From NCBI GenBank assembly GCA_964387675.1, contig CAYLWL010000002.1, positions 22,514 through 86,513 on the forward strand: a stretch of DNA of 64,000 bases, read 5' to 3'. The notes under the pieces were generated by a model. That model was given only the letters and a program-made list of their open reading frames with translations. It had not been told where the DNA came from and made no database searches. Both the position numbers and the translations under genes were made by a program. Below are positions 966 through 11,871 of this stretch, in pieces. The first letter of the stretch is position 1; every line of letters begins with the position of its first letter. The stretch is from an uncultured Candidatus Saccharibacteria bacterium. GTDB taxonomy: Bacteria; Patescibacteriota; Minisyncoccia; UBA6257; 2-01-FULL-56-20.

Positions 966-2210
966 ATGCGCGATATCAAATCTCTCAAGTCCCTTATGGA
1001 AAATCAGCTCGGACAGCCGTTCGAGAAGATTTCCGTGATCAATCTGGTGGATTTGCTTGTGGAGTACGCCTACAGCACGAAGGCCTCGGATATCCATATT
1101 CCACCCACGAGGGCTGGCTCGAGAATTCGCTTTCGCATCGACGGCCTGCTTCAGGATATTTTCGACAAGTCCAAAATTTCCAACGATCTGCATCAAGAAA
1201 TCATCGCGAGGATCAAAGTGCTGTCCGGTTTGAGGACGGACGAGCACTTTTTGCCGCAGGACGGAAGATTCAGGGTCAAAATCGAAGAGTTCGGCGATGT
1301 GGACATAAGAGTTTCCATCATGCCGACGTACTACGGCGAGAACGTGATCATGAGGGTCTTGGCGGAGAGCCAGAATTTCAAATTGGAGGACATGGGTTTT
1401 TCCCCAAACGACATTAAAAAAGTGGAAAGCGCGATCAGCAAATCCTTCGGGATGATTCTCGCGAACGGCCCCACGGGTTCGGGAAAAACCACCACGCTCT
1501 ACACGATTTTGCGGCGGCTCAACAGCCCGGAGGTCTCCATCATCACCATCGAGGACCCGATAGAGTATTCTCTTGACGGCACCACGCAGATTCAAATCAA
1601 CGAGCAGGTGGGGCTCACCTTCGCGAACGGTCTGCGATCCATTTTGCGCCAGGACCCGAACATCATCATGGTCGGCGAAATCCGCGACGAAGACACCGCG
1701 GCCATCGCCGTGAACGCTGCCCTTACGGGGCACTTGGTGCTCTCCACGCTCCACACGAACGACGCCGCCACCACATTCCCGCGGCTCCTTGATATGGGCG
1801 TGCCGCCGTTCCTCGTTGCTTCCACCGTGAACATCGCGACCGGCCAGCGGCTCGTGAGAACATTGTGCCAGGACTGCAAAACGAAGAGGGCATTGAAAGA
1901 CGAAGAAGTCAAAAGCTTATCGGAGCTTTTGCCGGAAATAGCGAAGATGGGCGAGAAAAACTTTTTCGCTCCGAATCCGAAAGGGTGCGACGCGTGCGGC
2001 CAGAGCGGATATCGGGGAAGGATCGGCATCCGTGAAGTGATCGAGGTGAACGAAGAAATCAGGCAGCTTGTGATGAATCGCGCCAACGCGACTCAGATCA
2101 AAGAAGCGGCGATTCGGAACGGGATGACGACGATGATAGAAGATGGTTTGCAAAAGGCGGCCAAAGGGCTGACTTCGATCGAAGAGATCATACGGATTAT
2201 ACATGAATAA
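966..2210 (+). CDS. pilB: type IV pilus assembly / type II secretion ATPase, PilB/GspE family (short form)
   Basis: Walker A GPTGSGKTTT, Asp box IIMVGEIRDEDTA, His box LVLSTLHTNDA, C-terminal Cys pairs CQDCK...CDACG. Overlaps pilC start by 8 nt. Confidence 0.85.
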   Translation: MRDIKSLKSLMENQLGQPFEKISVINLVDLLVEYAYSTKASDIHIPPTRAGSRIRFRIDGLLQDIFDKSKISNDLHQEIIARIKVLSGLRTDEHFLPQDGRFRVKIEEFGDVDIRVSIMPTYYGENVIMRVLAESQNFKLEDMGFSPNDIKKVESAISKSFGMILANGPTGSGKTTTLYTILRRLNSPEVSIITIEDPIEYSLDGTTQIQINEQVGLTFANGLRSILRQDPNIIMVGEIRDEDTAAIAVNAALTGHLVLSTLHTNDAATTFPRLLDMGVPPFLVASTVNIATGQRLVRTLCQDCKTKRALKDEEVKSLSELLPEIAKMGEKNFFAPNPKGCDACGQSGYRGRIGIREVIEVNEEIRQLVMNRANATQIKEAAIRNGMTTMIEDGLQKAAKGLTSIEEIIRIIHE

Positions 2211-3285
2211 GCTCAAGCGCTTTCTCATCAGCACGTTCGGGATCGGAGGAGTGCCGATCCAGGAAAAAATCAATTTTGCCCGCCACCTCTCGATCGTCAT
2301 CAAGGCCGGGCTTCCCATCCTCGAGGGCCTGCGTCTCATCAAACGACAGACCGCTTCGCGCGCCGTGGTTTCCGTTATTGATCAGGTGATTGTGGATGTG
2401 GGCAACGGGCAATTCTTGGCAACCAGCTTGTCGAGGTATCCCCATATTTTCGACGACTTTTTCATCAGCATCGTCCGGGTGGGCGAGACGAGCGGAACGC
2501 TGGCGCAGAATTTGGTGTATCTTGCCGATGAACTCAAAAAATCTCATGACTTAAGGAACAAGGTGCGCTCGGCGATGATTTACCCCGTTATCATTATGAT
2601 CGTCACGTCCGGCCTCGTTTCTTTTTTGGTGTTTTTCGCCTTTCCGAAAATTCTGCCCCTGTTCGCGAGTTTGCGGGTTGAATTGCCTGTCACGACCCGC
2701 GTCCTGATCGCTACTACGGCATTTTTCCTCGCGCACGGCGTCTCTGTCGTTGCGGGACTGGTCGCTTTCTTTGTGGCCCTTAGAATTCTACTGATACTTC
2801 GTCCCACGAAAATGATTTCCGACCGCCTACTCATCGCCACGCCCATCTTTTCCAAGATCATCATTGACGTGAACATGGCAAATTTCACGAGGGTGCTTTC
2901 GGTTCTACTGAAGGGCGGGATCAAGATCGTGGAAGCGGTGACCATCACCTCGCAAACGTTCAATAATCTTGTGTATCGCAGGGAGCTTGCCCGGGCCGCG
3001 GAAGGCATTCAAAAAGGGGATCAGTTGGCGAAGTATCTTGCCCATGATAAAAACATTTTCCCGATGTTGCTTTCGGGTCTCATCGAGATCGGAGAAAATA
3101 CGGGGAACTTGGAGGACAACCTGACATATTTGTCCGATTACTATCGCGAAGAGGCGGAACAGAGCATCAATACTTTAACCGCGCTTATCGAGCCCCTGCT
3201 TTTGCTCCTTATGGGAATGGTGGTGGGATTCGTCGCCATTTCAATCATTTCTCCCATCTATCAGATTACCCAAGGAGTGAGATGA
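2203..3285 (+). CDS. pilC: type IV pilus platform protein PilC/GspF family
   Basis: 360-aa polytopic membrane protein with two GspF-like halves (GLPILEGLRLI..., GGIKIVEAVTI...). Directly follows pilB. Confidence 0.8.
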   Translation: MNKLKRFLISTFGIGGVPIQEKINFARHLSIVIKAGLPILEGLRLIKRQTASRAVVSVIDQVIVDVGNGQFLATSLSRYPHIFDDFFISIVRVGETSGTLAQNLVYLADELKKSHDLRNKVRSAMIYPVIIMIVTSGLVSFLVFFAFPKILPLFASLRVELPVTTRVLIATTAFFLAHGVSVVAGLVAFFVALRILLILRPTKMISDRLLIATPIFSKIIIDVNMANFTRVLSVLLKGGIKIVEAVTITSQTFNNLVYRRELARAAEGIQKGDQLAKYLAHDKNIFPMLLSGLIEIGENTGNLEDNLTYLSDYYREEAEQSINTLTALIEPLLLLLMGMVVGFVAISIISPIYQITQGVR

Positions 3286-3743
3286 CGTTCGCTCGAAATA
3301 TCGAAATTTCGAAATATCGAGATGGTTTCACTTTGACGGAGGTTTTGATCGTTGTCGGGATCCTCGCGGTTGTTTTTGCCTTTGCGATCGGCGTCGGCAT
3401 CAATTTCTACGGCGGCCAAGCCGTTGTTTCGGAACGCGACACGCTCGTGAACGTGCTCCGGGCCGCGCGCGGCCGCGCCTTGAACAATTTCGACGAATCG
3501 AGCCACGGCGTTTTTATTGCCGCCGCGCAATACGTCCTTTTCGAGGGCAATTCGTACGCCAGCCGCAACCAGGATTTCGACTCCGTATTTCCGAGAGGGA
3601 AGGGGCTCACGATGAGCGGATTGTCGGAAGTCGTTTTCAACGCGCCGCAAGGCGACGCGAACGCTTCCGGCACCATAACCCTGTCGAACGACCTTGGCAA
3701 TGCTAAAATTAATATCAACAATGAAGGAAGAATTGATTGGTAA
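3282..3743 (+). CDS. prepilin-type N-terminal cleavage/methylation domain protein (pilin/pseudopilin)
   Basis: N-terminus MTFARNIEISKYRDG|FTLTEVLIVVGILAVVFAFAIG is a class III signal with G|FTLxE and a hydrophobic helix. Overlaps pilC stop by 4 nt. Confidence 0.8.
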   Translation: MTFARNIEISKYRDGFTLTEVLIVVGILAVVFAFAIGVGINFYGGQAVVSERDTLVNVLRAARGRALNNFDESSHGVFIAAAQYVLFEGNSYASRNQDFDSVFPRGKGLTMSGLSEVVFNAPQGDANASGTITLSNDLGNAKININNEGRIDW

Positions 3744-3744
3744 A

Positions 3745-3783
3745 TTATTAGAATCTAGAATCTAGAAAATAGAAAGTAGAATT
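3745..3783. repeat. TAGAA-family hairpin arm (left arm flanking four-helix-bundle gene copy 1)
   Basis: ttattagaatctagaatctagaaaatagaaagtagaatt. The inverted partner is at 4147-4188. Confidence 0.7.
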
Positions 3784-4128
3784 ATGAGTAATACAAAATC
3801 TTTTAAAGATTTAATTGTATGGCAGAAAGCGCGGAGTTTGGCGGTTGCGGTATATAAACTTTCTGAACAATTTCCTAACGTAGAGCTATATGGCCTAACA
3901 AGTCAAATGCGTCGCGCGGCCATTTCCATTTCTTCCAACATCGCCGAAAGTTACCACCGTTTTCATAGAAAAGAAAAACAGCAGTTTCTTTCTATCGCTT
4001 TTGGCTCCGGCTCGGAACTAGAAAGCCAAATAGAAATCGCCAAAGTTTTATTTCCAAAGCTGGATTATCGAGAAAGTGAAGAATTATTGTTGGAGGTTAT
4101 GAAAATACTAAATAATTTTCTACAATGA
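3784..4128 (+). CDS. four-helix-bundle protein (23S rRNA intervening-sequence protein / DGR Avd-like family), copy 1
   Basis: 114 aa. WQKARSLAVAVYKLSEQFPNVELYGLTSQMRRAAISISSNIAESYHRF matches the S23-ribosomal/IVS four-helix-bundle family. Flanked by inverted TAGAA repeats. Confidence 0.8.
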   Translation: MSNTKSFKDLIVWQKARSLAVAVYKLSEQFPNVELYGLTSQMRRAAISISSNIAESYHRFHRKEKQQFLSIAFGSGSELESQIEIAKVLFPKLDYRESEELLLEVMKILNNFLQ

Positions 4129-5558
4129 TCAAAATCGAAAAATTAAAAATAGTTCTTCTACTTTCTATTTTCTATTTTCTACCTTCTCGTAAGCGGGGGC
4201 AGTCCACGATTGAGATTTTGATCGCGGTGACGATTCTGACCGCGGTTTTGACGAGCGCCGCCGCGCTCATTTTCGGCAGCCAATCGCTCTCGGTTGATTC
4301 CGCGGAAAGTAATCAGGCATTGCGTCTCGCCGAACAGGGCTTGGAGGGCGTCAAAAATCAGGCCAGATACGACTTCCTCAACATCGTTTCGAGCACCGTG
4401 ACGCAGGGTGAGTTCACGAAAAACATCATTGTCTCGAATGTAGGCGCGAACACGAAGCAAGTGGTAAGCCGCGTTACGTGGAGCACCGATCCGCAGAGAA
4501 CCCAGCAAGTCGAACTCGTGACGCTTGTGACGGATTGGCGCGGCGTGCAGGACACCGGCGGAGACACGGGGAGCGGCGGCGGTGGCGGCGGCGCTTCTGG
4601 CGACTGGTGCAATCCCGCAACCCTCGGCACGATCGATTTGGGATCGGGTGAGTCGGCGACGGGCATCGATGTGATCGCAACAACGACCTATATGACGGCA
4701 GTCGCTTCCTCCCCGAGCAAGAAGGACTTTTTCATCGTTGATGTTTCCAATTCCAGCACTCCTTCCATTATCGGGTCCATAGACACCGGGCCGGGACTCA
4801 ATGCTCTGGACGTGACGGCAAACTACGCTTATGTCGCGAGCGACGACAGCTCCAAGCAATTCCAAGCCATCGACGTCAGCAACAAGACCAGCCCGGTTCT
4901 CGTTGCATCCACCACTCTTACGAGCAATTCCGCCGTTGGACGGAGTATTTTTTACCATAATCAAAAAGTATATATCGGCACGGACGACAATAGTGGAAAC
5001 GAATTCCAGATTATCGACGTGGCCACTCCCGCAACCCCCGTGATTTTGGGAAGAGCTTCTTTGGATGAAGATGTGAATTCCATTTACGTGAGCGGGAACA
5101 AGGCATATCTTGCAACATCCGATACGTCGAAAGACGTGCAGATTTTCGATGTGTCGACTTCATCCGCGCCCGCGCTTCTTGGCACGTATGACATTTCGGG
5201 TGCCGGAGAAACGAAATGGCTGTATGTGGTTGGCACGAAAATGTATGTGGGCAGAGAAACCGGAGGAGATGAACTTTATGTATTGGATATTACGAATGCC
5301 ACTTCGGTGTCGGTGTTGGGCCATAAGGCGATCGGCAAAACGGTGAACGCGATTACAGTGCGCGGCAATTACGCGTTCCTTGCCACCTCCGACCCGAACA
5401 ACGAGCTCAAGATATTCGACGTTTCCAATCTTTCAAATATCACTTCCTGCAGTAACTTCAACTTTCCCAACATCGCGACCGCCGTCGATTTCGACGCCAA
5501 TCTGGTGTACACCGCCGTGCGATCGAACGACGGCCTGCGCATCGTGACATCGCAATAA
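4125..5558 (+). CDS. prepilin-like N-terminus fused to an LVIVD-repeat beta-propeller domain protein
   Basis: N-terminal KRGQSTIEILIAVTILTAVLTSAAALIFG is a pilin-type G/x-T-x-E plus TM. A Gly-rich linker (GGDTGSGGGGGGASGD) is followed by at least six repeats of the pattern xxIxDVSNxSxPxxxG (FIVDVSNSSTPSIIGS, QAIDVSNKTSPVLVAS, QIIDVATPATPVILGR, QIFDVSTSSAPALLGT, YVLDITNATSVSVLGH, KIFDVSNLSNITSCS). These are typical of LVIVD repeats. True start codon uncertain. Confidence 0.65.
   Translation: MIKIEKLKIVLLLSIFYFLPSRKRGQSTIEILIAVTILTAVLTSAAALIFGSQSLSVDSAESNQALRLAEQGLEGVKNQARYDFLNIVSSTVTQGEFTKNIIVSNVGANTKQVVSRVTWSTDPQRTQQVELVTLVTDWRGVQDTGGDTGSGGGGGGASGDWCNPATLGTIDLGSGESATGIDVIATTTYMTAVASSPSKKDFFIVDVSNSSTPSIIGSIDTGPGLNALDVTANYAYVASDDSSKQFQAIDVSNKTSPVLVASTTLTSNSAVGRSIFYHNQKVYIGTDDNSGNEFQIIDVATPATPVILGRASLDEDVNSIYVSGNKAYLATSDTSKDVQIFDVSTSSAPALLGTYDISGAGETKWLYVVGTKMYVGRETGGDELYVLDITNATSVSVLGHKAIGKTVNAITVRGNYAFLATSDPNNELKIFDVSNLSNITSCSNFNFPNIATAVDFDANLVYTAVRSNDGLRIVTSQ
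4147..4188. repeat. TAGAA-family hairpin arm (right arm); also encodes N-terminus of the following pilin-like ORF
   Basis: tagttcttctactttctattttctattttctaccttctcg is the reverse-complement partner of 3745-3783. It translates in frame as VLLLSIFYFLPSR preceding KRG|QSTIE. Confidence 0.7.
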
Positions 5559-5560
5559 AA

Positions 5561-5600
5561 TTAGAATTTAGTAGCTAGTATCTAGAAACTAGAATGCGAG
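5561..5600. repeat. TAGAA-family hairpin arm
   Basis: ttagaatttagtagctagtatctagaaactagaatgcgag. Partner at 5635-5668. Confidence 0.65.
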
Positions 5601-5624
5601 AAATAACCAACGCAAACGCAATTT

Positions 5625-6155
5625 ATGAATAAAATACTAGATTCTAGATTCCAGATTCTAGATTCTCGCAGAGGGTTTACCTTGATGGAGACCTTGATTT
5701 ACATCGCTCTTTTTTCCGTCATTACGAGCTATGTCCTTGGCGTGTTCTATCAACTCCTCGGCAGCCGCAACCAAAATCGCGACAGGACGGAAGTTGACGC
5801 GGAAGCGAACTTTCTCATGCAGAAACTGCGGTGGGCAATGAGCGGCGTCCAAACCGTCAACCAGCCGGCGACAGGCGCCACTTCGACGACGCTATCGGTC
5901 ACAAAGTACAATTTCGCGCAGAACCCGATCGTATTCGACCTTGATTCCAGTACCCTCCGAATGGCAAAGGGTGGGGGAGCGGCGGTAATTTTAAACAATA
6001 GCCGCGTGGGAGTGGGCCAGCTGACATTCGAGCGCCTGGCTCCGGTGAGTAACGCTCCGGAAGGAGTTACCATAACATTGTCGGTATCGTCCCTTGATGT
6101 TGAGCGGCCGGTCGTCGCTTCCACCACTATCGTGGACACCATTTATTTAAGGTAA
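5625..6155 (+). CDS. prepilin-type N-terminal cleavage/methylation domain protein (pseudopilin)
   Basis: MNKILDSRFQILDSRRG|FTLMETLIYIALFSVITSYVLG is a canonical class III signal peptide. Confidence 0.8.
   Translation: MNKILDSRFQILDSRRGFTLMETLIYIALFSVITSYVLGVFYQLLGSRNQNRDRTEVDAEANFLMQKLRWAMSGVQTVNQPATGATSTTLSVTKYNFAQNPIVFDLDSSTLRMAKGGGAAVILNNSRVGVGQLTFERLAPVSNAPEGVTITLSVSSLDVERPVVASTTIVDTIYLR
5635..5668. repeat. TAGAA-family hairpin arm that encodes the pilin leader peptide
   Basis: tactagattctagattccagattctagattctcg translates as ILDSRFQILDSR immediately before RG|FTLMETLI. Confidence 0.65.
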
Positions 6156-6207
6156 TAAGCTAGCTTTTAGGTGTTAGCTGTTAGGTTTTAGAAAACAAAT
6201 AAATAAA

Positions 6208-6648
6208 ATGAGAGAAAAGTTCTATCATATCGGCAACCTACTAAAAGCTATAAGCTATAAGCTAAAAGCCCGGGTTGGCTACATCGGCATCGTGTCGGCG
6301 CTTATCATATCGGCCGTTGTGGTTCTGATTATGGTCGCGGTGGGGCAGATTTCGTTCTTGAACCGCATCAACATTTCCGACACCCACTTAAAAAAGAAAA
6401 GCCGGGCGCTCGCGGAGGGGTGCGTCGACACAGCGCTCTTGAAGCTCGCGTCGAACGCTTCCTACGCCGGCAACGAAACCATCACTGTTGCGAGCGATAC
6501 ATGCAAAATCGTTTCCGTGGTTTCGTCGAGTACGGGAAAGATCATTTCTGCCCAGGGCAAGTTCCTCGGCGCGGTGACGGATGTCAAGGCGACCGTTGAC
6601 ACCAACACCTTCTCGATCGTGGGCTGGGAAGAGGTGAGGAGTTTTTGA
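6208..6648 (+). CDS. hypothetical membrane protein in pilus operon (possible minor pilin/PilX-like)
   Basis: 146 aa with one N-terminal TM helix (IGIVSALIISAVVVLIMVAVG). No recognisable motif. Confidence 0.4.
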   Translation: MREKFYHIGNLLKAISYKLKARVGYIGIVSALIISAVVVLIMVAVGQISFLNRINISDTHLKKKSRALAEGCVDTALLKLASNASYAGNETITVASDTCKIVSVVSSSTGKIISAQGKFLGAVTDVKATVDTNTFSIVGWEEVRSF

Positions 6649-6691
6649 TTAGAAAGTAGAATTTAGAAAATAGAAAGTAGAATCTGGAAAA
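6649..6691. repeat. TAGAA-family hairpin arm
   Basis: ttagaaagtagaatttagaaaatagaaagtagaatctggaaaa. Partner at 6710-6747. Confidence 0.65.
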
Positions 6692-6693
6692 CT

Positions 6694-7191
6694 ATGAAAA
6701 ATTTAAAAACAACTTCTATTTTCTATTTTCTAGATTCTAGATTCTCGAATAAGGGTTTCACTTTGATAGAGGTCGTCATATCGGTGGCAATCATTACGCT
6801 CCTTACGGTTGCTGCCATTGTTATTCTCGATCCCGCTCGGCAGTTTGCCAAATCGAGAAACACACAGCGCTGGTCGGATGTGAATGTGATTTTGAATGCG
6901 GTTGGGCAAAACACCGTTGACAACCGCGGAACTTTTTCGTGCAGTTCCGGCGGGATTCCCACGACTACGACGAGGATGGCGTCCAGCAGTCCGAACTACA
7001 ATATCGCGCCGTGCCTTGTAGCGACCTATTTAAGCGCCTTGCCGTTCGATCCGGCAACGAGCGGCGCGAAGTGGACGAGCGTAACCGATTACGACACCGC
7101 TTATAACATCCTGCGAAACGCCACAACCGGCCGCGTGACGATTTCCGCTCCGGCGGCCGAACTTGGGGAGAGCGTTACGGTCACGAGGTAG
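6694..7191 (+). CDS. prepilin-type N-terminal cleavage/methylation domain protein (pilin)
   Basis: MKNLKTTSIFYFLDSRFSNKG|FTLIEVVISVAIITLLTVAAIVIL. Confidence 0.8.
   Translation: MKNLKTTSIFYFLDSRFSNKGFTLIEVVISVAIITLLTVAAIVILDPARQFAKSRNTQRWSDVNVILNAVGQNTVDNRGTFSCSSGGIPTTTTRMASSSPNYNIAPCLVATYLSALPFDPATSGAKWTSVTDYDTAYNILRNATTGRVTISAPAAELGESVTVTR
6710..6747. repeat. TAGAA-family hairpin arm encoding pilin leader
   Basis: aacttctattttctattttctagattctagattctcg translates as TSIFYFLDSRFS before NKG|FTLIEV. Confidence 0.65.
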
Positions 7192-7195
7192 GGTC

Positions 7196-7356
7196 GGTGC
7201 GCTCCGCGCCGTCCTTTCGGAAACAGCATAATTTTCTTCCAGCGAGAAAATTTGCTTCGCTCTTGGTCCGCCAGGTCCGATTGTCCGATTACAATCGGAC
7301 CACCAAGCTGGCGGACCTCCGAGATGTTCCTCAAGAACGGCGCGGAGCGCACCATG
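7196..7356. repeat. nested inverted-repeat structured element between convergent genes (likely bidirectional terminator or structured RNA)
   Basis: Outer pair ggtgcgctccgcgccg (7196-7211) / cggcgcggagcgcacc (7341-7356). Inner pairs ggtccgccag/ctggcggacc and gtccgattgt..acaatcggac. Confidence 0.6.
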
Positions 7357-7411
7357 CCTATCGCTTACATGTGGATTGATTATTGAGGTCTAACAAAAAA
7401 TGAAATGTTTC

Positions 7412-9328
7412 TTAGACCGAGGCGTATTTGTCGCTCGGTGAGACCTCTATCGCGTCCCACTTATCTTTGAGCGCTGCCACCTTGCCGGGGTTTGCCAAAG
7501 TCACCGAGAGAAGGATTTTCGTAAGGTTGCTGTCTGTTCGCGTAAACTTTGAACTAAAATCATTTATTTCCTCGCTCAGGAGATGAGCAAGTTCGTGGAG
7601 ATAGGTTTTCGCTGCTTCTAAAAACGGCCCGGCAAGCAAACTTTGATTGATGAAAATATCGCTTCCGCCGATCGCCGTAAATCCGTGGAGTCCTATTTCT
7701 CCTTCTAGGCCCTTCAGTTTCAGAACTTTTCTGGCGGATACTTTCGGGGCGACTTCCTGAAGGCGGAGGATAAACTCCTCGGCTTCAAATACGCCCATGG
7801 CCTGTTCTAAAAGTTTTGGATCGATCGTTCGGCCGTCGAGGAGATGCCATATTTCTTCGAGCACTTTTATCCGCTCTTGTTCCGGAGCGTTTAATTCCAC
7901 GTTTTCTGCCGTATCGACAAGCCCCACTATTTTTTCCCGCGCGAGCGGCATACCAAGCTGGTTCAGTTCCGGTATACATATGGTAAACCCCGCACTCTTC
8001 AGAACCTCTTCATAGCCATTCAAGCGGCTCGAGTAAGCACCTGCCGCATCACGAGCAACGCACATTCCCCAGAATTTTTCAGGAATCCTTGGGGACGAGG
8101 AAGTTGCTCGCATTCCAAATAACAGCTTCTTTACGATTTTTTTGACGAGCAGTAAGGCCGGTTTTTTCGCTTCCTCATAAGGCACATCTTCCCAGTAATC
8201 TTTGAGTTTTTCTAATACATTCCTGGCTTGTTCGTCGGTCATTTCTTTAACAAGCGGCGCCAGCACGTTTTCATCAAATTCCCCGGCTTCGCAGTAACTT
8301 CGATCCCTTCGCTTTTGCAAGGCCTTTCTGTTTGTCCAGATAGTCATTCCTTCAACTTGGTGCGACCAGCCATCGTGCTTTCCGTATTCATATCTTTGTC
8401 CCGAGATATAAAGATTGCCCTTTCCTCCTTTCGGCAAAAGCTCAAATCCGCCGAAGTCAGATTCAAACGTGGGGTTTTGGAAATCTTCGTTCGTGGAGCT
8501 GTAAAAGAAATCTTTCATTAAAGAGAAGTCCTCATCAAGTTTCAAAATTTCCAACGCTTCATCCGGGAGATCATCTTCATACCAATGCCAAAAGGAAGAC
8601 GGAATCGCGAATTTTAAGTAGTTGCCGGGGAATGGTTCTCGCGTAAATTTCGCGCGGACGTGAAGTCCCTGAACTTTATCTGGATAATCTTCTTCTGGCA
8701 GAGAATCCAGATAATAAATCATTTTCCAGTGGCCTGAGCCGAGCTCCACGTTATCGGTTAACCTGTTTTGCAAAAGCAGGAAGGCGGCTATTTTTACCCC
8801 CTCGCCGAATTCACCGGCGGCTTCGGGGTCATCAAACTTTGTTGTTCCTCCATGATGGATCAAATAGCGGTGATCGTATTCTGCCGGAGAGGTGATTACA
8901 AACTCGCGATACTCCCTGCCGTCAATTTGCGCGGTTCTTTCTTCGGACTTAACACCGTCGAGTGTCGGTCTCCCGGCATAAGCCGCCATGCCGTCATAAA
9001 AGTTTTGAAAAATATCCCGGAGCAGTTTTGTGTTTGACCACCCGATCATCTGGGTCTCAAGAGGACCGATGTATCTGCCACCCTCCAGTGCCTTGAGAAG
9101 TGCCGCGATAACTTCGGGATTGGATTTTTTCCGGGTTACAATTCCATACTCTTTTGCCAGTTGGTATGCGGCGTCTATGTCTTCTTTGGAGTAATTGCTC
9201 GGCCACTTCGGGTCGTCCAAAAACTTTCTTACCCGCTCAATTTCTTCGAGCGCCTCGCTTTCGGTTAATGGCTCCTGGTATGGCCCCTCGTCAGGTATGG
9301 TGAAAGATTCTTTCCGTGGTTTAGGCAT
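7412..9328 (-). CDS. large hypothetical protein (638 aa) with C-terminal HExxH zinc-peptidase-like motif
   Basis: No Walker or other family motifs recognised. C-terminal TYLHELAHLLSEE is an HExxH motif as in SprT/ImmA-IrrE-type metallopeptidases. Acidic, Trp-rich central region. Confidence 0.6.
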   Translation of the reverse strand: MPKPRKESFTIPDEGPYQEPLTESEALEEIERVRKFLDDPKWPSNYSKEDIDAAYQLAKEYGIVTRKKSNPEVIAALLKALEGGRYIGPLETQMIGWSNTKLLRDIFQNFYDGMAAYAGRPTLDGVKSEERTAQIDGREYREFVITSPAEYDHRYLIHHGGTTKFDDPEAAGEFGEGVKIAAFLLLQNRLTDNVELGSGHWKMIYYLDSLPEEDYPDKVQGLHVRAKFTREPFPGNYLKFAIPSSFWHWYEDDLPDEALEILKLDEDFSLMKDFFYSSTNEDFQNPTFESDFGGFELLPKGGKGNLYISGQRYEYGKHDGWSHQVEGMTIWTNRKALQKRRDRSYCEAGEFDENVLAPLVKEMTDEQARNVLEKLKDYWEDVPYEEAKKPALLLVKKIVKKLLFGMRATSSSPRIPEKFWGMCVARDAAGAYSSRLNGYEEVLKSAGFTICIPELNQLGMPLAREKIVGLVDTAENVELNAPEQERIKVLEEIWHLLDGRTIDPKLLEQAMGVFEAEEFILRLQEVAPKVSARKVLKLKGLEGEIGLHGFTAIGGSDIFINQSLLAGPFLEAAKTYLHELAHLLSEEINDFSSKFTRTDSNLTKILLSVTLANPGKVAALKDKWDAIEVSPSDKYASV

Positions 9329-9398
9329 GGTATTGAAATTATTTTATCTCTAATTCTTCCACTAAGGCAACTTCTGATGGAACTGCCCTTCGACGGGC

Positions 9399-10502
9399 TT
9401 AGGACAAGTGTTCTATTATTGCTATTTCCAGAGGTACGCTTGCGAACGGCGAGTAGCGCATTTCCGAATATGCGCGGATGAGGGATTTTATCAGGCGAAT
9501 TGCCGATTCGGTTTCGAGCGAGGCGGACAGTTTTTTTATCTTTTCGATTTCGTCCGAAGTCATTTCGCCGCCGAACGATTTTTCGAGGGCGGGGTTCAAC
9601 TTAAGCGTAAGCACCTTTCTTAGATAGTGGATCAGGTCTTTGGTGAGTTGCACTACATTGTGTCCCTCTTCGTTTAGTTCTTCGAGAAAGCCCAAGGCGC
9701 CTTGCAAATCTTTTTTCACGATGAATTCCGAAAGTCCGTGCACTTTTTTGAGGCCCACCCGGCCGGTTGTCCGCTCGACGGTTTTGAGGTCGATCGTTCC
9801 GCCCAAAGATCGCATTTGATCGAGCAGGGACTCGGCGTCGCGTAAGCTTCCTTCTCCAGCCGCCGCGATGAGTTCCAGGGCCGCCGCATCGACATCGATC
9901 TTTTCCGCCTGCGCGATCATGGCAAGTTTCTCGATGATTTTGACCTTCGGGAGTTTCTTGAAAACGAATCGTTGCGTTCGGGACGTGATCGTGGGAGGCA
10001 ACTTTTCGTATTCGGTGGTGGCAAGCACGAGAACCGCGTGCGACGGCGGTTCTTCGAGCGTTTTGAGAAGCGCGTTGAAAGCCGGGCCGGTCAACATATG
10101 CGCCTCGTCGATGATGTAGACCTTGTAGTCGGCCGACGAAGGAGACGTTTTGATGCTGTCTTTGAGGTCGCGGATTTCGTCGATGCCGCGGTTCGAGGCG
10201 GCGTCTATCTCGATCACGTCGAAAGAGTTTTGGTTGTCGATCTCGGTGCAGTGCCGGCAGGCGTTGCAGGGTTCGCCTTGGGCTCTGAACTTTTCATCGT
10301 CGCGGCGTTTTTCGCAGTTTAAGAGTTTAGCAATCAGCCGCGCGGTGGTGGTTTTTCCGGTTCCGCGAGGACCATAAAACAAATAAGCATGGCCAATGCG
10401 GTTGTTCTTGGCCGCGTTCTTCAAAATCAGCGCGTTCGTTTCTTGTCCCAAAAGCTCGTCAAGTTTTTTGGGACGGTATTTGCGGTAAAGTGCGAGGGCC
10501 AT
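9399..10502 (-). CDS. dnaX: DNA polymerase III subunit gamma/tau (short form)
   Basis: YLFYGPRGTGKTTTARLIAKLLNC Walker A, zinc module CEKRRDDEKFRAQGEPCNACRHC, DEAH-like IIDEAHML, SRT sensor TSRTQRF. Confidence 0.9.
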   Translation of the reverse strand: MALALYRKYRPKKLDELLGQETNALILKNAAKNNRIGHAYLFYGPRGTGKTTTARLIAKLLNCEKRRDDEKFRAQGEPCNACRHCTEIDNQNSFDVIEIDAASNRGIDEIRDLKDSIKTSPSSADYKVYIIDEAHMLTGPAFNALLKTLEEPPSHAVLVLATTEYEKLPPTITSRTQRFVFKKLPKVKIIEKLAMIAQAEKIDVDAAALELIAAAGEGSLRDAESLLDQMRSLGGTIDLKTVERTTGRVGLKKVHGLSEFIVKKDLQGALGFLEELNEEGHNVVQLTKDLIHYLRKVLTLKLNPALEKSFGGEMTSDEIEKIKKLSASLETESAIRLIKSLIRAYSEMRYSPFASVPLEIAIIEHLS

Positions 10503-10560
10503 ATGTCTGAATTATAGGAAAAATTCTTGATATCTGCAAAATATCCGATATAATACTGAG

Positions 10561-11871
10561 ATGAGGTTGCGGGTTATTTTGGGAATAGTTGCTCTCGGCG
10601 CCATATTTTTTTTGGTTTTTGTGCCGCGCGTGGTTATTATCGCGCCCGTTGAACTTGCGAAAGTCGCCGTGAAATCGGCCGCTTCCGTTCTCCCCGGCAT
10701 TCCGGAAGCGATCGTTCCAGAGTCGAAACAAGGCCAGTCGAAAATATCGGGAACATCGGATTTGCCCAATCAGCCGCCGCTCGCAAACCCGCCGGATGTC
10801 GCAAAGGGGATCTATGTGACCGGTTGGTCGGCGGGTTCGCAGTCGAGAATAAGCTCGCTCATCGCGCTTGTGAAGCGCACGGAAGTAAACGCGATGGTGG
10901 TGGATATCAAGGATTATTCGGGCAATGTTTCGTACAGAACGGGGCTTCCGGAAGTTGTCGCGGCGGGCGCGGAAGGAGAAATCCGCGTCGCTCAGCCGAA
11001 TGCCCTCATCAAACGGCTTCACGACGAGCATATCTACATCATCGGGCGCATCACCGTGTTCCAGGATCCCATTTTGGCGAAGGCGCATCCCGAGTGGGCG
11101 CTTCAAAACAAAGTGACCGGCAAAACATGGACAGATAGCAAAAAACTTTCCTGGATGGATGCGGCCGCCAAGCCCGTTTGGGATTATACTATTGCTATCG
11201 CCAAGGATGCTTTCGCGCGCGGCTTCGACGAAATTCAATTCGATTATGTGCGGTTCGCCTCCGACGGCGCGCTCGGAGAGATCGATTATCCGTTTTGGGA
11301 CGCGAAAACGCCGCGGCACAAAGTCATCGCCGAGTTTTTCAAGTATCTGCGGGACAGCTTGCCGGGCAAGAAGATTTCCGCCGATCTTTTCGGTCTTGCG
11401 GCAGTTGATACCTGGGATGACCTGGGAATAGGCCAGGTTATTGAAGACGCCTACAAAAACTTCGATTACGTTTCGCCGATGGTGTATCCTTCGCACTTCG
11501 CCGCGGGAACGCTTGGCTATAAAAGCCCCGCCCAGCATCCGTACGAAATCGTAAAGTATTCGATGGAGCAGGCGCTCGCGAGGTTAGCAAAGAGCAAAGA
11601 GCAAAGAGCAAATAGTTCTTCTACTATTATTATCACAACATCATCCGATCAATTCGCTATCGGCCCTTTGCCCTTCGCTGCGAAGTTACGCCCGTGGCTT
11701 CAGGACTTCAATCTCGGAGCAACCTATAACGCGGAGATGGTGCGCAAGCAGATCCAGGCGACCTATGACGTTTTCCTGAACGGCACTTCGAGCGATCCTT
11801 CCAGATTCGGCGGCTGGATACTCTGGGATCCCGCGAATACGTACACGGAAGGAGCGTTGGAGCGAGGATGA
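10561..11871 (+). CDS. secreted/membrane-anchored hypothetical protein, possibly GH-like TIM-barrel (DUF4015/GHL10-type) family
   Basis: N-terminal TM/signal (ILGIVALGAIFFLVF). Motif block GIYVTGWSAGS...VNAMVVDIKDYSGNVSY recalls the COG1306 putative glycoside hydrolase family. Contains the in-frame repeat insertion LAKSKEQRANSSSTIIITTSS (11581-11640). Confidence 0.4.
   Translation: MRLRVILGIVALGAIFFLVFVPRVVIIAPVELAKVAVKSAASVLPGIPEAIVPESKQGQSKISGTSDLPNQPPLANPPDVAKGIYVTGWSAGSQSRISSLIALVKRTEVNAMVVDIKDYSGNVSYRTGLPEVVAAGAEGEIRVAQPNALIKRLHDEHIYIIGRITVFQDPILAKAHPEWALQNKVTGKTWTDSKKLSWMDAAAKPVWDYTIAIAKDAFARGFDEIQFDYVRFASDGALGEIDYPFWDAKTPRHKVIAEFFKYLRDSLPGKKISADLFGLAAVDTWDDLGIGQVIEDAYKNFDYVSPMVYPSHFAAGTLGYKSPAQHPYEIVKYSMEQALARLAKSKEQRANSSSTIIITTSSDQFAIGPLPFAAKLRPWLQDFNLGATYNAEMVRKQIQATYDVFLNGTSSDPSRFGGWILWDPANTYTEGALERG

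What the first reader, a model, noticed from the sequence alone, without database searches (positions are those of the whole stretch)
7412..9328. 638-aa orphan protein with only a C-terminal HExxH motif, convergent on the pilus operon
No family assignable by eye. Acidic and Trp-rich (WHWYEDDLPDE, DYWEDVPYEE), ending in TYLHELAHLLSEE, an SprT/ImmA-IrrE-like zinc-peptidase signature. Size, lack of TM segments, and placement directly downstream of the pili make it a candidate novel effector or regulatory protease.
Basis: seen in the sequence. Interest (0 to 1): 0.55.

Follow-up and report, generated by a model that had tools for sequence, protein, structure and literature searches.

The report
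ATPase-coupled zinc protease, unannotated family
The "orphan" gene encodes a fusion not found in the literature searched here, a topoisomerase/MORC/Hsp90-type ATP-driven clamp joined to a Wss1/SprT-type zinc protease; it belongs to a large unannotated family found in ultra-small bacteria and archaea and in gut Melainabacteria, with phage relatives of the ATPase part, and has no real link to the neighbouring pilus genes.

The parts
7412..9328 (-). Whole gene: 638-aa GHKL-ATPase / WLM-type zinc protease fusion (NCBI: hypothetical protein HY434_01580, Candidatus Liptonbacteria MAG)
   Evidence: ORF; identity and source; full-length conservation
9077..9328 (-). aa 1-84: N-terminal extension specific to the close CPR clade, helical and poorly modelled; variable or replaced in the wider family
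8507..9076 (-). aa 85-274: Bergerat-fold (GHKL) ATP-binding domain (boundaries approximate)
8993..9019 (-). aa 104-112 RDIFQNFYD: GHKL motif I (N-box, ExxxNxxD) with D105 in place of the catalytic Glu, N109 as Mg ligand, and D112
   Evidence: R/D/Q/N/F/D each conserved in 96-99% of 112 modules; the phage homologue has the canonical RELIQNAID; coordinates checked
8792..8851 (-). aa 160-179 GGTTKFDDPEAAGEFGEGVK: ATP-lid with K164 and the GxxGxG box (G172/G175/G177)
   Evidence: G160 97%, K164 95%, G172 100%, E176 96%, G177 99%. The resemblance to the GyrB GGKFDD...GGLHGVG and MutL HATSK...GFRGEA lids is from my own knowledge and was not aligned here.
8549..8590 (-). aa 247-260 WHWYEDDLPDEALE: insertion unique to this protein, in a surface loop of the ATPase domain
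   Evidence: absent from all 12 close homologues; model pLDDT 58-65 there
8207..8506 (-). aa 275-374: transducer domain (ribosomal-S5-type fold), with G304-N-L-Y-I-S-G-Q-R312 and R341-D342-R343 (boundaries approximate)
7889..8206 (-). aa 375-480: helical middle region linking ATPase and protease; no structural match found
7415..7888 (-). aa 481-638: WLM/SprT-like small zincin (metalloprotease) domain
7559..7597 (-). aa 578-590 HELAHLLSEEIND: catalytic HExxH (H578, E579, H582) plus invariant D590, the candidate third zinc ligand
   Evidence: H/E/H in 111/112 modules, D590 in 98/112; invariant in the close clade; coordinates checked
9399..10502 (-). Context only: short dnaX (367 aa, clamp-loader domains I-III), upstream on the same strand with a 70-nt gap; possibly co-transcribed, but the linkage is not conserved
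   Evidence: homologue contexts
9341..9370 (-). Weak sigma-70-like promoter match (TTGCCT-18-TAAAAT, 9/12) between dnaX and the gene; consensus match only

Best explanation
The gene encodes a cytoplasmic, stand-alone, ATP-gated zinc metalloprotease. Its N-terminal half is a GHKL (Bergerat-fold) ATP-binding domain followed by an S5-type transducer domain, the same two-domain engine found in type II topoisomerases, MutL, Hsp90 and MORC. Its C-terminal domain is a WLM/SprT-type small zincin using HExxH plus a conserved Asp. By analogy with all characterised GHKL+transducer proteins, ATP binding should close the ATP lid and dimerise the N-terminal domains. A basic residue from the transducer would then complete the ATPase site, and the movement would pass through the transducer and helical middle region to the protease, controlling substrate access or activity. 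Shown here: the folds, the conservation of the catalytic and ligand residues of both domains, the fixed domain order across hundreds of relatives, and the absence of any conserved partner gene. Inferred: ATP hydrolysis, dimerisation, coupling between ATPase and protease, and the substrate. My preferred role is regulated or quality-control proteolysis of cellular proteins, a housekeeping role in these small-genome lineages, but the substrate is unknown.
Against: No biochemical data exist for any member. The canonical adenine-binding Asp of GHKL motif II (DxGxG) is not conserved at the expected strand end (I145-x-G147), and the catalytic Glu is replaced by Asp, so nucleotide specificity or hydrolysis rate may differ, or the domain may only bind nucleotide. 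The third zinc ligand is Asp rather than the His of WLM/SprT, and this protein has a unique 3-residue insertion in that loop. I could not inspect the model coordinates, so the zinc geometry, the identity of the transducer 'finger' residue and any ATPase-protease contact are unverified. About 26-29 relatives carry an N-terminal TM helix whose topology is undetermined. A minority of full-length relatives lack HExxH. The housekeeping role rests only on the absence of defence context.
Confidence: 0.57

Rival explanations
1. Conflict/defence module of the paraMORC type. The GHKL+S5 ATPase senses an invader (for example phage DNA or a phage protein) and switches on the fused protease as the effector. 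Phage-encoded, protease-less homologues would act as decoys or counter-defence.
For: GHKL+S5 modules fused to C-terminal effector domains (nuclease, TIR) are the paraMORC pattern (PMC2292703). The distribution is patchy across very distant lineages: CPR, DPANN archaea, Melainabacteria, Gammaproteobacteria MAGs, Methanosarcinales, Muribaculaceae. This suggests lateral transfer. Phage relatives of the ATPase part exist: phrog_6077 hits 66/73 members, Vequintavirinae phages carry a homologue, and there is structural similarity to RIIA.
Against: PADLOC gives no hit. No restriction-modification, helicase, nuclease or other defence family is enriched among 150 non-redundant flanking genes. Neighbours in the window and in close homologues are housekeeping genes: dnaX, pili, DnaG, sigma-70, NUDIX. 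There are no matches in plasmid records. The phages carrying homologues infect Enterobacteria; I did not search enterobacterial genomes for this family.
Confidence: 0.17
2. DNA-protein crosslink or chromatin-bound-protein protease. A MORC/MutL-like ATP-dependent DNA clamp would deliver a Wss1/SPRTN-like protease to proteins stuck on DNA, linked to replication.
For: The closest structural relative of the protease is Wss1, with Spartan also matched; both are DNA-protein crosslink proteases (PMC4559962). The best ATPase matches are DNA enzymes: topo II, ParE, MORC, MutL. In the window the gene sits 70 nt downstream of dnaX on the same strand. One close homologue lies next to an Exo_endo_phos protein and DnaG primase, another two genes from an RNase_T-type exonuclease.
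Against: Every domain of the protein is acidic or neutral (-4, -6, -8, -9, 0), so no basic DNA-binding surface is evident from sequence. The replication/repair neighbours are not conserved. Relatives include membrane-anchored and giant multi-thousand-residue forms, which do not fit a soluble DNA-repair factor. Small zincins of this fold (M48, minigluzincins) also act on non-DNA substrates.
Confidence: 0.13
3. Pilus-associated effector or regulatory protease. The protein would process or regulate components of the adjacent type IV pilus system or be delivered by it.
For: Only the physical proximity and convergent orientation to the pilus cluster at 966-7191.
Against: The gene is on the opposite strand, separated by a 220-nt spacer containing a very stable hairpin. 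None of the close-homologue contexts shown has pilus genes, and no family recurs in the flanks of the distant loci. The protein has no secretion signal.
Confidence: 0.03
4. Nucleotide-binding scaffold, or a self-processing domain rather than a protease acting on other proteins. The GHKL domain would only bind a ligand and the zincin would cleave the protein itself, for example to release parts of the giant relatives.
For: The motif II Asp is missing and the catalytic Glu is Asp. In giant proteins of 1,100-6,000 aa the module sits internally, as releasing peptidases do in large multidomain proteins. Wss1 itself self-cleaves (PMC4559962).
Against: Most members are ~500-850-aa proteins consisting of little more than the module, so nothing needs releasing. 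The Mg-binding Asn, lid Lys, Gly loops and invariant Arg residues in the transducer region are conserved as in active GHL ATPases.
Confidence: 0.1

Closest known systems
GHKL+S5 ATPase modules of type II topoisomerases (GyrB/ParE/Topo II), MutL, Hsp90 and MORC
   Different: Sequence similarity is undetectable by HMMER against PDB or Pfam for the query. The catalytic Glu is Asp, and the motif II Asp is absent. The output domain is a protease rather than a nuclease, Toprim or client-binding domain.
Prokaryotic paraMORC families (Iyer, Abhiman and Aravind 2008, PMC2292703)
   Same: GHKL+S5 module with a family-specific C-terminal effector domain and a sporadic distribution across bacteria and archaea. 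The S5-region motif G304-N-L-Y-I-S-G-Q-R312-Y-E fits 9 of 11 positions of the MORC signature GhXhhpXXRhl quoted in that paper. A phage homologue weakly hits HATPase_c_3, a Pfam GHKL-type ATPase model.
   Different: The paraMORC effectors described there are nucleases or TIR domains, and most sit in restriction-modification operons with helicases and methylases. Here the effector is a zinc protease and there is no such context. The paper does not mention any peptidase fusion (0 occurrences).
Wss1 / SPRTN (WLM and SprT-like DNA-protein-crosslink proteases; minigluzincin-like)
   Different: The third zinc ligand His (HELTHNLFGPH in Wss1p) is replaced by a conserved Asp (HExxHxxGxD in most of the family, with a longer loop in this protein). 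There are no SUMO/ubiquitin/Cdc48-binding motifs, no evidence of DNA binding, and the partner ATPase has a different fold (GHKL, not AAA+).
AAA+ ATP-dependent proteases (FtsH, Lon)
   Same: Concept only: an ATPase and a protease in one polypeptide. FtsH also uses an HExxH zinc site, and some relatives here are membrane-anchored by an N-terminal helix.
   Different: The ATPase has a different fold and presumably a different mechanism: a dimeric clamp rather than a hexameric unfoldase ring. The AAA-type Pfam hits belong to the neighbouring DnaX protein, not to this one.
Phage phrog_6077 proteins (e.g. Cronobacter phage GAP31 gene 101) and T4 RIIA-type GHKL proteins
   Same: phrog_6077 is truly homologous to the ATPase-transducer part (66/73 members hit, best E=6.6e-15; hhalign 97%), sharing the N-box, GxTTK, GxFGEG and RDR motifs. 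RIIA proteins are structural relatives.
   Different: The phage proteins are ~380 aa and lack the protease domain. Their function is unknown. RIIA similarity is at fold level only (phrog RIIA hit in 1/73).

Membership tests
GHKL (Bergerat-fold) ATPase superfamily | Bergerat alpha/beta sandwich ATP-binding fold | tested here: met
GHKL (Bergerat-fold) ATPase superfamily | Motif I (N-box) ExxxNxxD with a Mg-binding Asn and a general-base Glu | tested here: met
   D105-x3-N109-x2-D112. RDxxQNxxD occurs in 148/161 relatives and RExxQNxxD in 3. The acid is Asp instead of Glu; the phage homologue has the canonical RELIQNAID.
GHKL (Bergerat-fold) ATPase superfamily | Motif II DxGxG with the adenine-contacting Asp | tested here: not met
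   No conserved Asp at the end of the second strand. The consensus is V-x-I145-x-G147-x-[GAS]-x-Y151. This is judged from sequence only; no structure-based alignment was possible.
GHKL (Bergerat-fold) ATPase superfamily | Motif III GxxGxG and a Gly-rich ATP lid | tested here: met
   G172-x-x-G175-E-G177 (100/91/99%), preceded by G160...K164 (97/95%).
GHKL (Bergerat-fold) ATPase superfamily | ATP binding and hydrolysis | not testable with these tools
   Needs biochemistry.
GHL/MORC subclass (GHKL + S5 transducer) | S5-fold transducer domain directly after the GHKL domain | tested here: met
GHL/MORC subclass (GHKL + S5 transducer) | Conserved basic residue from the transducer reaching the gamma-phosphate | tested here: inconclusive
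   The candidates R312 (88%), R341 (96%) and R343 (100%) are conserved. The model coordinates could not be inspected to say which one points into the pocket.
MORC family proper | S5-domain signature GhXhhpXXRhl (PMC2292703) | tested here: inconclusive
paraMORC restriction-modification-linked systems | Conserved operon with SF-II helicase, methylase or endonuclease genes | tested here: not met
   No such families among the listed top Pfam families of 150 non-redundant flanking genes. No conserved neighbour cluster beyond related Gastranaerophilales.
WLM / SprT-like zincins (Wss1, SPRTN) | Small zincin fold with HExxH on the active-site helix | tested here: met
WLM / SprT-like zincins (Wss1, SPRTN) | Third zinc ligand His six residues after the second His (HExxHxxxxxH) | tested here: not met
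   The family consensus is HExxHxxGxD, and the query has HELAHLLSEEIND. A conserved Asp (D590, 98/112) lies next to the aligned position of the Wss1 His.
WLM / SprT-like zincins (Wss1, SPRTN) | Significant match to the curated family model | tested here: inconclusive
   The query has no Pfam hit. WLM PF08325 is hit weakly by 17/73 members, best E=0.001. Family profile vs Wss1p sequence: E=0.018.
WLM / SprT-like zincins (Wss1, SPRTN) | DNA-stimulated proteolysis of DNA-bound proteins | not testable with these tools
   Needs biochemistry. The acidic composition gives no support.
ImmA/IrrE (M78) peptidases | Match to the ImmA/IrrE fold or model, usually next to an HTH regulator gene | tested here: not met
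AAA+ ATP-dependent proteases | AAA+ P-loop ATPase domain | tested here: not met
   No AAA/P-loop model hits this protein. The ATPase fold is Bergerat.

The most novel reading that the evidence does not exclude
This family is a new class of energy-dependent protease. A dimeric GHKL/Bergerat-fold ATP clamp, not an AAA+ ring, would capture or gate substrates for a WLM-type zinc protease. It would be widespread in CPR bacteria, DPANN archaea and human-gut Melainabacteria, with phages carrying protease-less copies of the ATPase that may interfere with it.
Probability: 0.3. Interest if true: 0.8.

Novelty: new variant of a known kind. Interest (0 to 1): 0.6.

Why it matters
To my knowledge, all well-studied ATP-dependent proteases couple proteolysis to AAA+ ATPases. 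A conserved fusion of a topoisomerase/MutL/Hsp90/MORC-type ATPase engine to a Wss1/SprT-type protease would be a different way of coupling ATP to proteolysis. It would also extend the known outputs of the GHKL+S5 engine (nuclease, Toprim, TIR, client binding) to a peptidase. The family has at least 463 sequence clusters and no curated model among the libraries searched here (Pfam, NCBIfam, PADLOC). It is concentrated in lineages whose biology is largely unknown: CPR, DPANN and Gastranaerophilales of the human and animal gut. It also has clear homologues in large enterobacterial phages. That gives experimentally tractable entry points, namely recombinant protein and the phage gene GAP31_101, and assigns folds and likely enzymatic domains to hundreds of 'hypothetical proteins', including parts of giant proteins of up to 6,024 residues.

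Tried and rejected
1. Direct scans of the query against Pfam, NCBIfam, PADLOC and PDB sequences gave nothing. The close-clade profile against PDB and Pfam also gave nothing useful.
2. The first AlphaFold run, with only the 13 close sequences, gave a poor model (pLDDT 42) and was discarded. The 88-sequence alignment fixed this.
3. The afdb50 fold library was unavailable, so I could not look for annotated AlphaFold-DB relatives.
4. A second homologous-protein run with the broad alignment only re-found the close clade.
5. tblastn of the query against phage and plasmid records found nothing. Only the family consensus reached phage homologues.
6. Conserved gene neighbourhood: rejected after clustering 787 ORFs from 80 loci and scanning 150 flanking proteins against Pfam.
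7. Pilus linkage: rejected, as it is absent from the homologue contexts examined.
8. The idea that the ORF supplies the missing tau C-terminus of the short DnaX, or is joined to it by frameshift or read-through: rejected. The genes are in different frames, 70 nt apart; homologues are not next to dnaX; and the fold is unrelated.
9. Extra domains in giant relatives: none found. The 6,024-aa protein exceeded the tool's size limit.
10. Topology of the membrane-anchored subgroup by the positive-inside rule: undecided, with 3.8 vs 4.1 K/R on the two flanks.
11. Rfam scan of the gene and its flanks: no RNA family.
12. Literature searches for a GHKL-WLM/SprT/metallopeptidase fusion found no description.

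Full report
OBSERVATION. The ORF is exactly as described. It runs from ATG at 9328 to TAA at 7412-7414 on the minus strand and encodes 638 codons. The quoted peptides are present. The protein is acidic (net charge -27) and has no hydrophobic segment. It converges on a + strand type IV pilus/pseudopilin cluster: a GspE/PilB ATPase, a GspF-like protein and three N-methyl pseudopilins ending at 7191. dnaX is transcribed divergently from 10561-11871(+), and the 359-aa minus-strand ORF at 10459-11538 is a shadow ORF. Pfam, NCBIfam, PADLOC and PDB-sequence searches with the query give nothing. The sequence is identical to NCBI 'hypothetical protein HY434_01580' from a Candidatus Liptonbacteria (CPR) MAG.

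NOT AN ORPHAN. Twelve homologues at 36-42% identity align end to end. H578, E579 and H582 are invariant among them, but the N-terminal half is conserved even more strongly. An exhaustive profile search of 1.84 billion cluster representatives finds 463 proteins at E<=1e-3 and 164 at <=1e-30. All share a core (positions ~95-480). In most, an HExxH follows: 133 of 161 listed relatives carry the motif, and it lies a median 61 residues after the core in 56 of the 65 relatives that could be scored. Proteins of 1,100-6,000 aa carry two tandem modules. The first keeps HExxH; in all but one case the second has lost it while usually keeping the ATPase-type motifs. Ten distant members and three further giants have no informative Pfam domain, and every member that carries a name is 'hypothetical protein'.

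FOLD. AlphaFold with the 13 close sequences failed (pLDDT 42). With an 88-sequence alignment of the wider family (A2; query aa 85-638) it gave pLDDT 89.4 and pTM 0.87.
- Foldseek agrees, hitting Hsp90, Top2, MORC2/3/4, Topo VI-B and GyrB.
The helical region between the two domains (aa ~375-480) has no match.

INDEPENDENT SEQUENCE SUPPORT.
- The broad profile hits Wss1p at E=0.018 over the entire protease domain, with HELxH aligned.
- Scanned individually, 17 of 73 diverse members hit Pfam WLM weakly (best E=0.001), the most frequent family by far, and 2 hit HATPase_c_3.
- PHROGs family phrog_6077 (unknown function) is hit by 66 of 73 members, best E=6.6e-15.
- A family consensus finds its members in ~140-150-kb enterobacterial myophages, including Vequintavirinae.
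- One of these, the 382-aa product of Cronobacter phage GAP31 gene 101, aligns to the ATPase-transducer part at hhalign probability 97%, E=1.6e-11. It carries a canonical N-box (RELIQNAIDAG) and the shared GxTTK, GKFGEG and RDR motifs, but no protease tail.
- That phage protein in turn hits Pfam HATPase_c_3 at E=7.5e-4 and the Sacsin domain at 0.017.

CATALYTIC RESIDUES (112 diverse modules).
- Motif I is R104-D105-x-x-Q108-N109-F110-x-D112, each residue 96-99% conserved. It equals ExxxNxxD with Asp for the general-base Glu.
- The ATP lid is G160-x-x-x-K164...G172-x-x-G175-E176-G177-x-K179. From my own knowledge this resembles the GyrB (GGKFDD...GGLHGVG) and MutL (HATSK...GFRGEA) lids; I did not align them here.
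- Motif IV is G235-N236.
- The transducer has G304-N-h-Y307-h-x-G-Q311-R312 and an almost invariant R341-D342-R343. The former fits 9 of 11 positions of the MORC S5 signature GhXhhpXXRhl quoted by Iyer et al. (PMC2292703).
- The one canonical feature that is missing is the adenine-binding Asp of motif II.
- The protease has HExxH in 111/112 modules, followed by G-x-D in most of the family. This protein has a unique 3-residue insertion, giving HELAHLLSEEIND590. The Asp lies next to the position of Wss1's third His ligand in the profile alignment, so the site looks like an Asp-zincin variant of the WLM fold.

CONTEXT.
- Close homologues sit in different surroundings: NUDIX, Exo_endo_phos, DnaG and sigma-70 in one; metallo-beta-lactamase, RNase_T and NUDIX in another; unrelated metabolic genes in a third.
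- A scan of 185,579 species genomes returned 184 confirmed loci. The 80 kept come from CPR lineages, Nano- and Woesearchaeota, many Gastranaerophilales/Melainabacteria, some Gammaproteobacteria MAGs, Thioploca, Methanosarcinales and Muribaculaceae.
- After clustering 787 flanking ORFs, no neighbour family occurs in more than 11 loci, and those are all related Gastranaerophilales.
- No Pfam family is enriched among 150 non-redundant genes within two positions of the family gene; the maximum is 3.
So the pilus adjacency and the dnaX adjacency are both local accidents, and there is no defence-island or restriction-modification signature. About 26-29 relatives have a single N-terminal TM helix, with topology undecided. 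The query has none.

MECHANISM. Shown: two enzyme folds with their key residues conserved, in a fixed order, in a stand-alone gene. Inferred from the GHL/MORC paradigm (PMC2292703 and established knowledge of GyrB, MutL and Hsp90): ATP binding closes the lid and dimerises the N-terminal domains, a transducer Arg completes the site, and the motion passes through the transducer and helical region to the C-terminal output domain, here a protease. The tandem-module giants, in which only one of the two modules keeps HExxH, fit a dimeric working unit with one active protease site being sufficient. The substrate is unknown. I favour regulated or quality-control proteolysis, because the neighbours are housekeeping genes and defence context is absent. 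The alternatives are a conflict-system role (patchy distribution, phage homologues) and a Wss1-like role on DNA-bound proteins (best structural match; dnaX, DnaG or exonuclease genes nearby in three of the four close-clade contexts, counting the window; against it, acidic domains).

COMPARISON AND NOVELTY. The protein works like a GHKL+S5 engine with a fused output domain (MutL-endonuclease, GyrB-Toprim, paraMORC-nuclease/TIR), and its output domain is like Wss1/SprT. It is not a member of any curated family among those searched. It fails the paraMORC operon criterion, the WLM third-ligand criterion and the GHKL motif II criterion, while meeting the fold and other motif criteria. Five full-text searches found no description of a GHKL-metallopeptidase fusion, and the paraMORC paper lists no peptidase effector. 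I therefore rate it a new variant of known kinds. The most novel reading still open is a non-AAA+, GHKL-driven ATP-dependent protease.

LIMITS. Everything rests on prediction. I could not inspect the model coordinates, run a dimer prediction or search the AlphaFold database. Domain boundaries in the parts list are approximate, taken from secondary structure and alignment ranges.

Noticed in passing
window 7189-7360 (intergenic, between the last pseudopilin gene and the 3' end of the ORF): A nested long inverted repeat: arms 7189-7222/7327-7360 (34 nt, 82% complementary), 7265-7274/7308-7317 (10/10) and 7274-7284/7291-7301 (11/11). Folded as RNA it gives -104 kcal/mol against -60.9 +/- 4.4 for shuffles (z = -9.9). 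It has no Rfam match, and its core palindrome is unique in the window. It may be a bidirectional terminator or an unknown structured RNA or mobile remnant. The 84-aa ORF at 7101-7355(-) lies on it and is probably spurious.
   Followed up: partly
window 9399-10502 (-): dnaX is only 367 aa, covering clamp-loader domains I-III (gamma-like). It has no tau C-terminal domains IV-V and no second ORF that could supply them.
   Followed up: partly
window 3784-5558 (+): A 23S-rRNA-intervening-sequence-type protein (114 aa, PF05635, E=1.4e-32) and a 477-aa LVIVD-repeat beta-propeller protein sit inside the type IV pilus/pseudopilin gene cluster.
   Followed up: no
window 10459-11871: The 359-aa minus-strand ORF (10459-11538) is a shadow of the real + strand gene 10561-11871. 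That gene encodes 436 aa with a hydrophobic N-terminus and has no PADLOC or NCBIfam hit (I did not scan it against Pfam). A bidirectional promoter-like pair lies at 10511-10554, between it and dnaX.
   Followed up: partly
L064:1-5796, L069:1-9423, L071:4717-9252, L085:1-5847; proteins P0028, P0036, P0040 (6,024 aa) and others: Giant relatives carry two tandem ATPase-protease modules. The first keeps HExxH, and in all but one case (P0049) the second has lost it. The rest of these giants has no informative Pfam domain.
   Followed up: partly
L087:3986-5134 (+) (Cronobacter phage vB_CsaM_GAP31 gene GAP31_101) and 14 other phage records: Large enterobacterial myophages, including Vequintavirinae, encode a ~380-aa homologue of the ATPase-transducer part only (phrog_6077). 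It sits among small hypothetical genes and its function is unknown.
   Followed up: partly
relatives P0065, P0083, P0094, P0104, P0114 and others (about 26-29 of 161): A subgroup of 700-940-aa relatives has a single N-terminal transmembrane helix at residues ~36-90, and some members give weak coiled-coil-type Pfam hits. The positive-inside rule does not decide the topology.
   Followed up: partly
relatives P0079, P0087, P0122, P0140, P0149, P0150: A minority of apparently full-length single-module relatives have the ATPase core but no HExxH downstream. This may be a subfamily with a different or inactivated C-terminal domain.
   Followed up: no
It lies in a lower-confidence loop of the ATPase domain.
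   Followed up: yes
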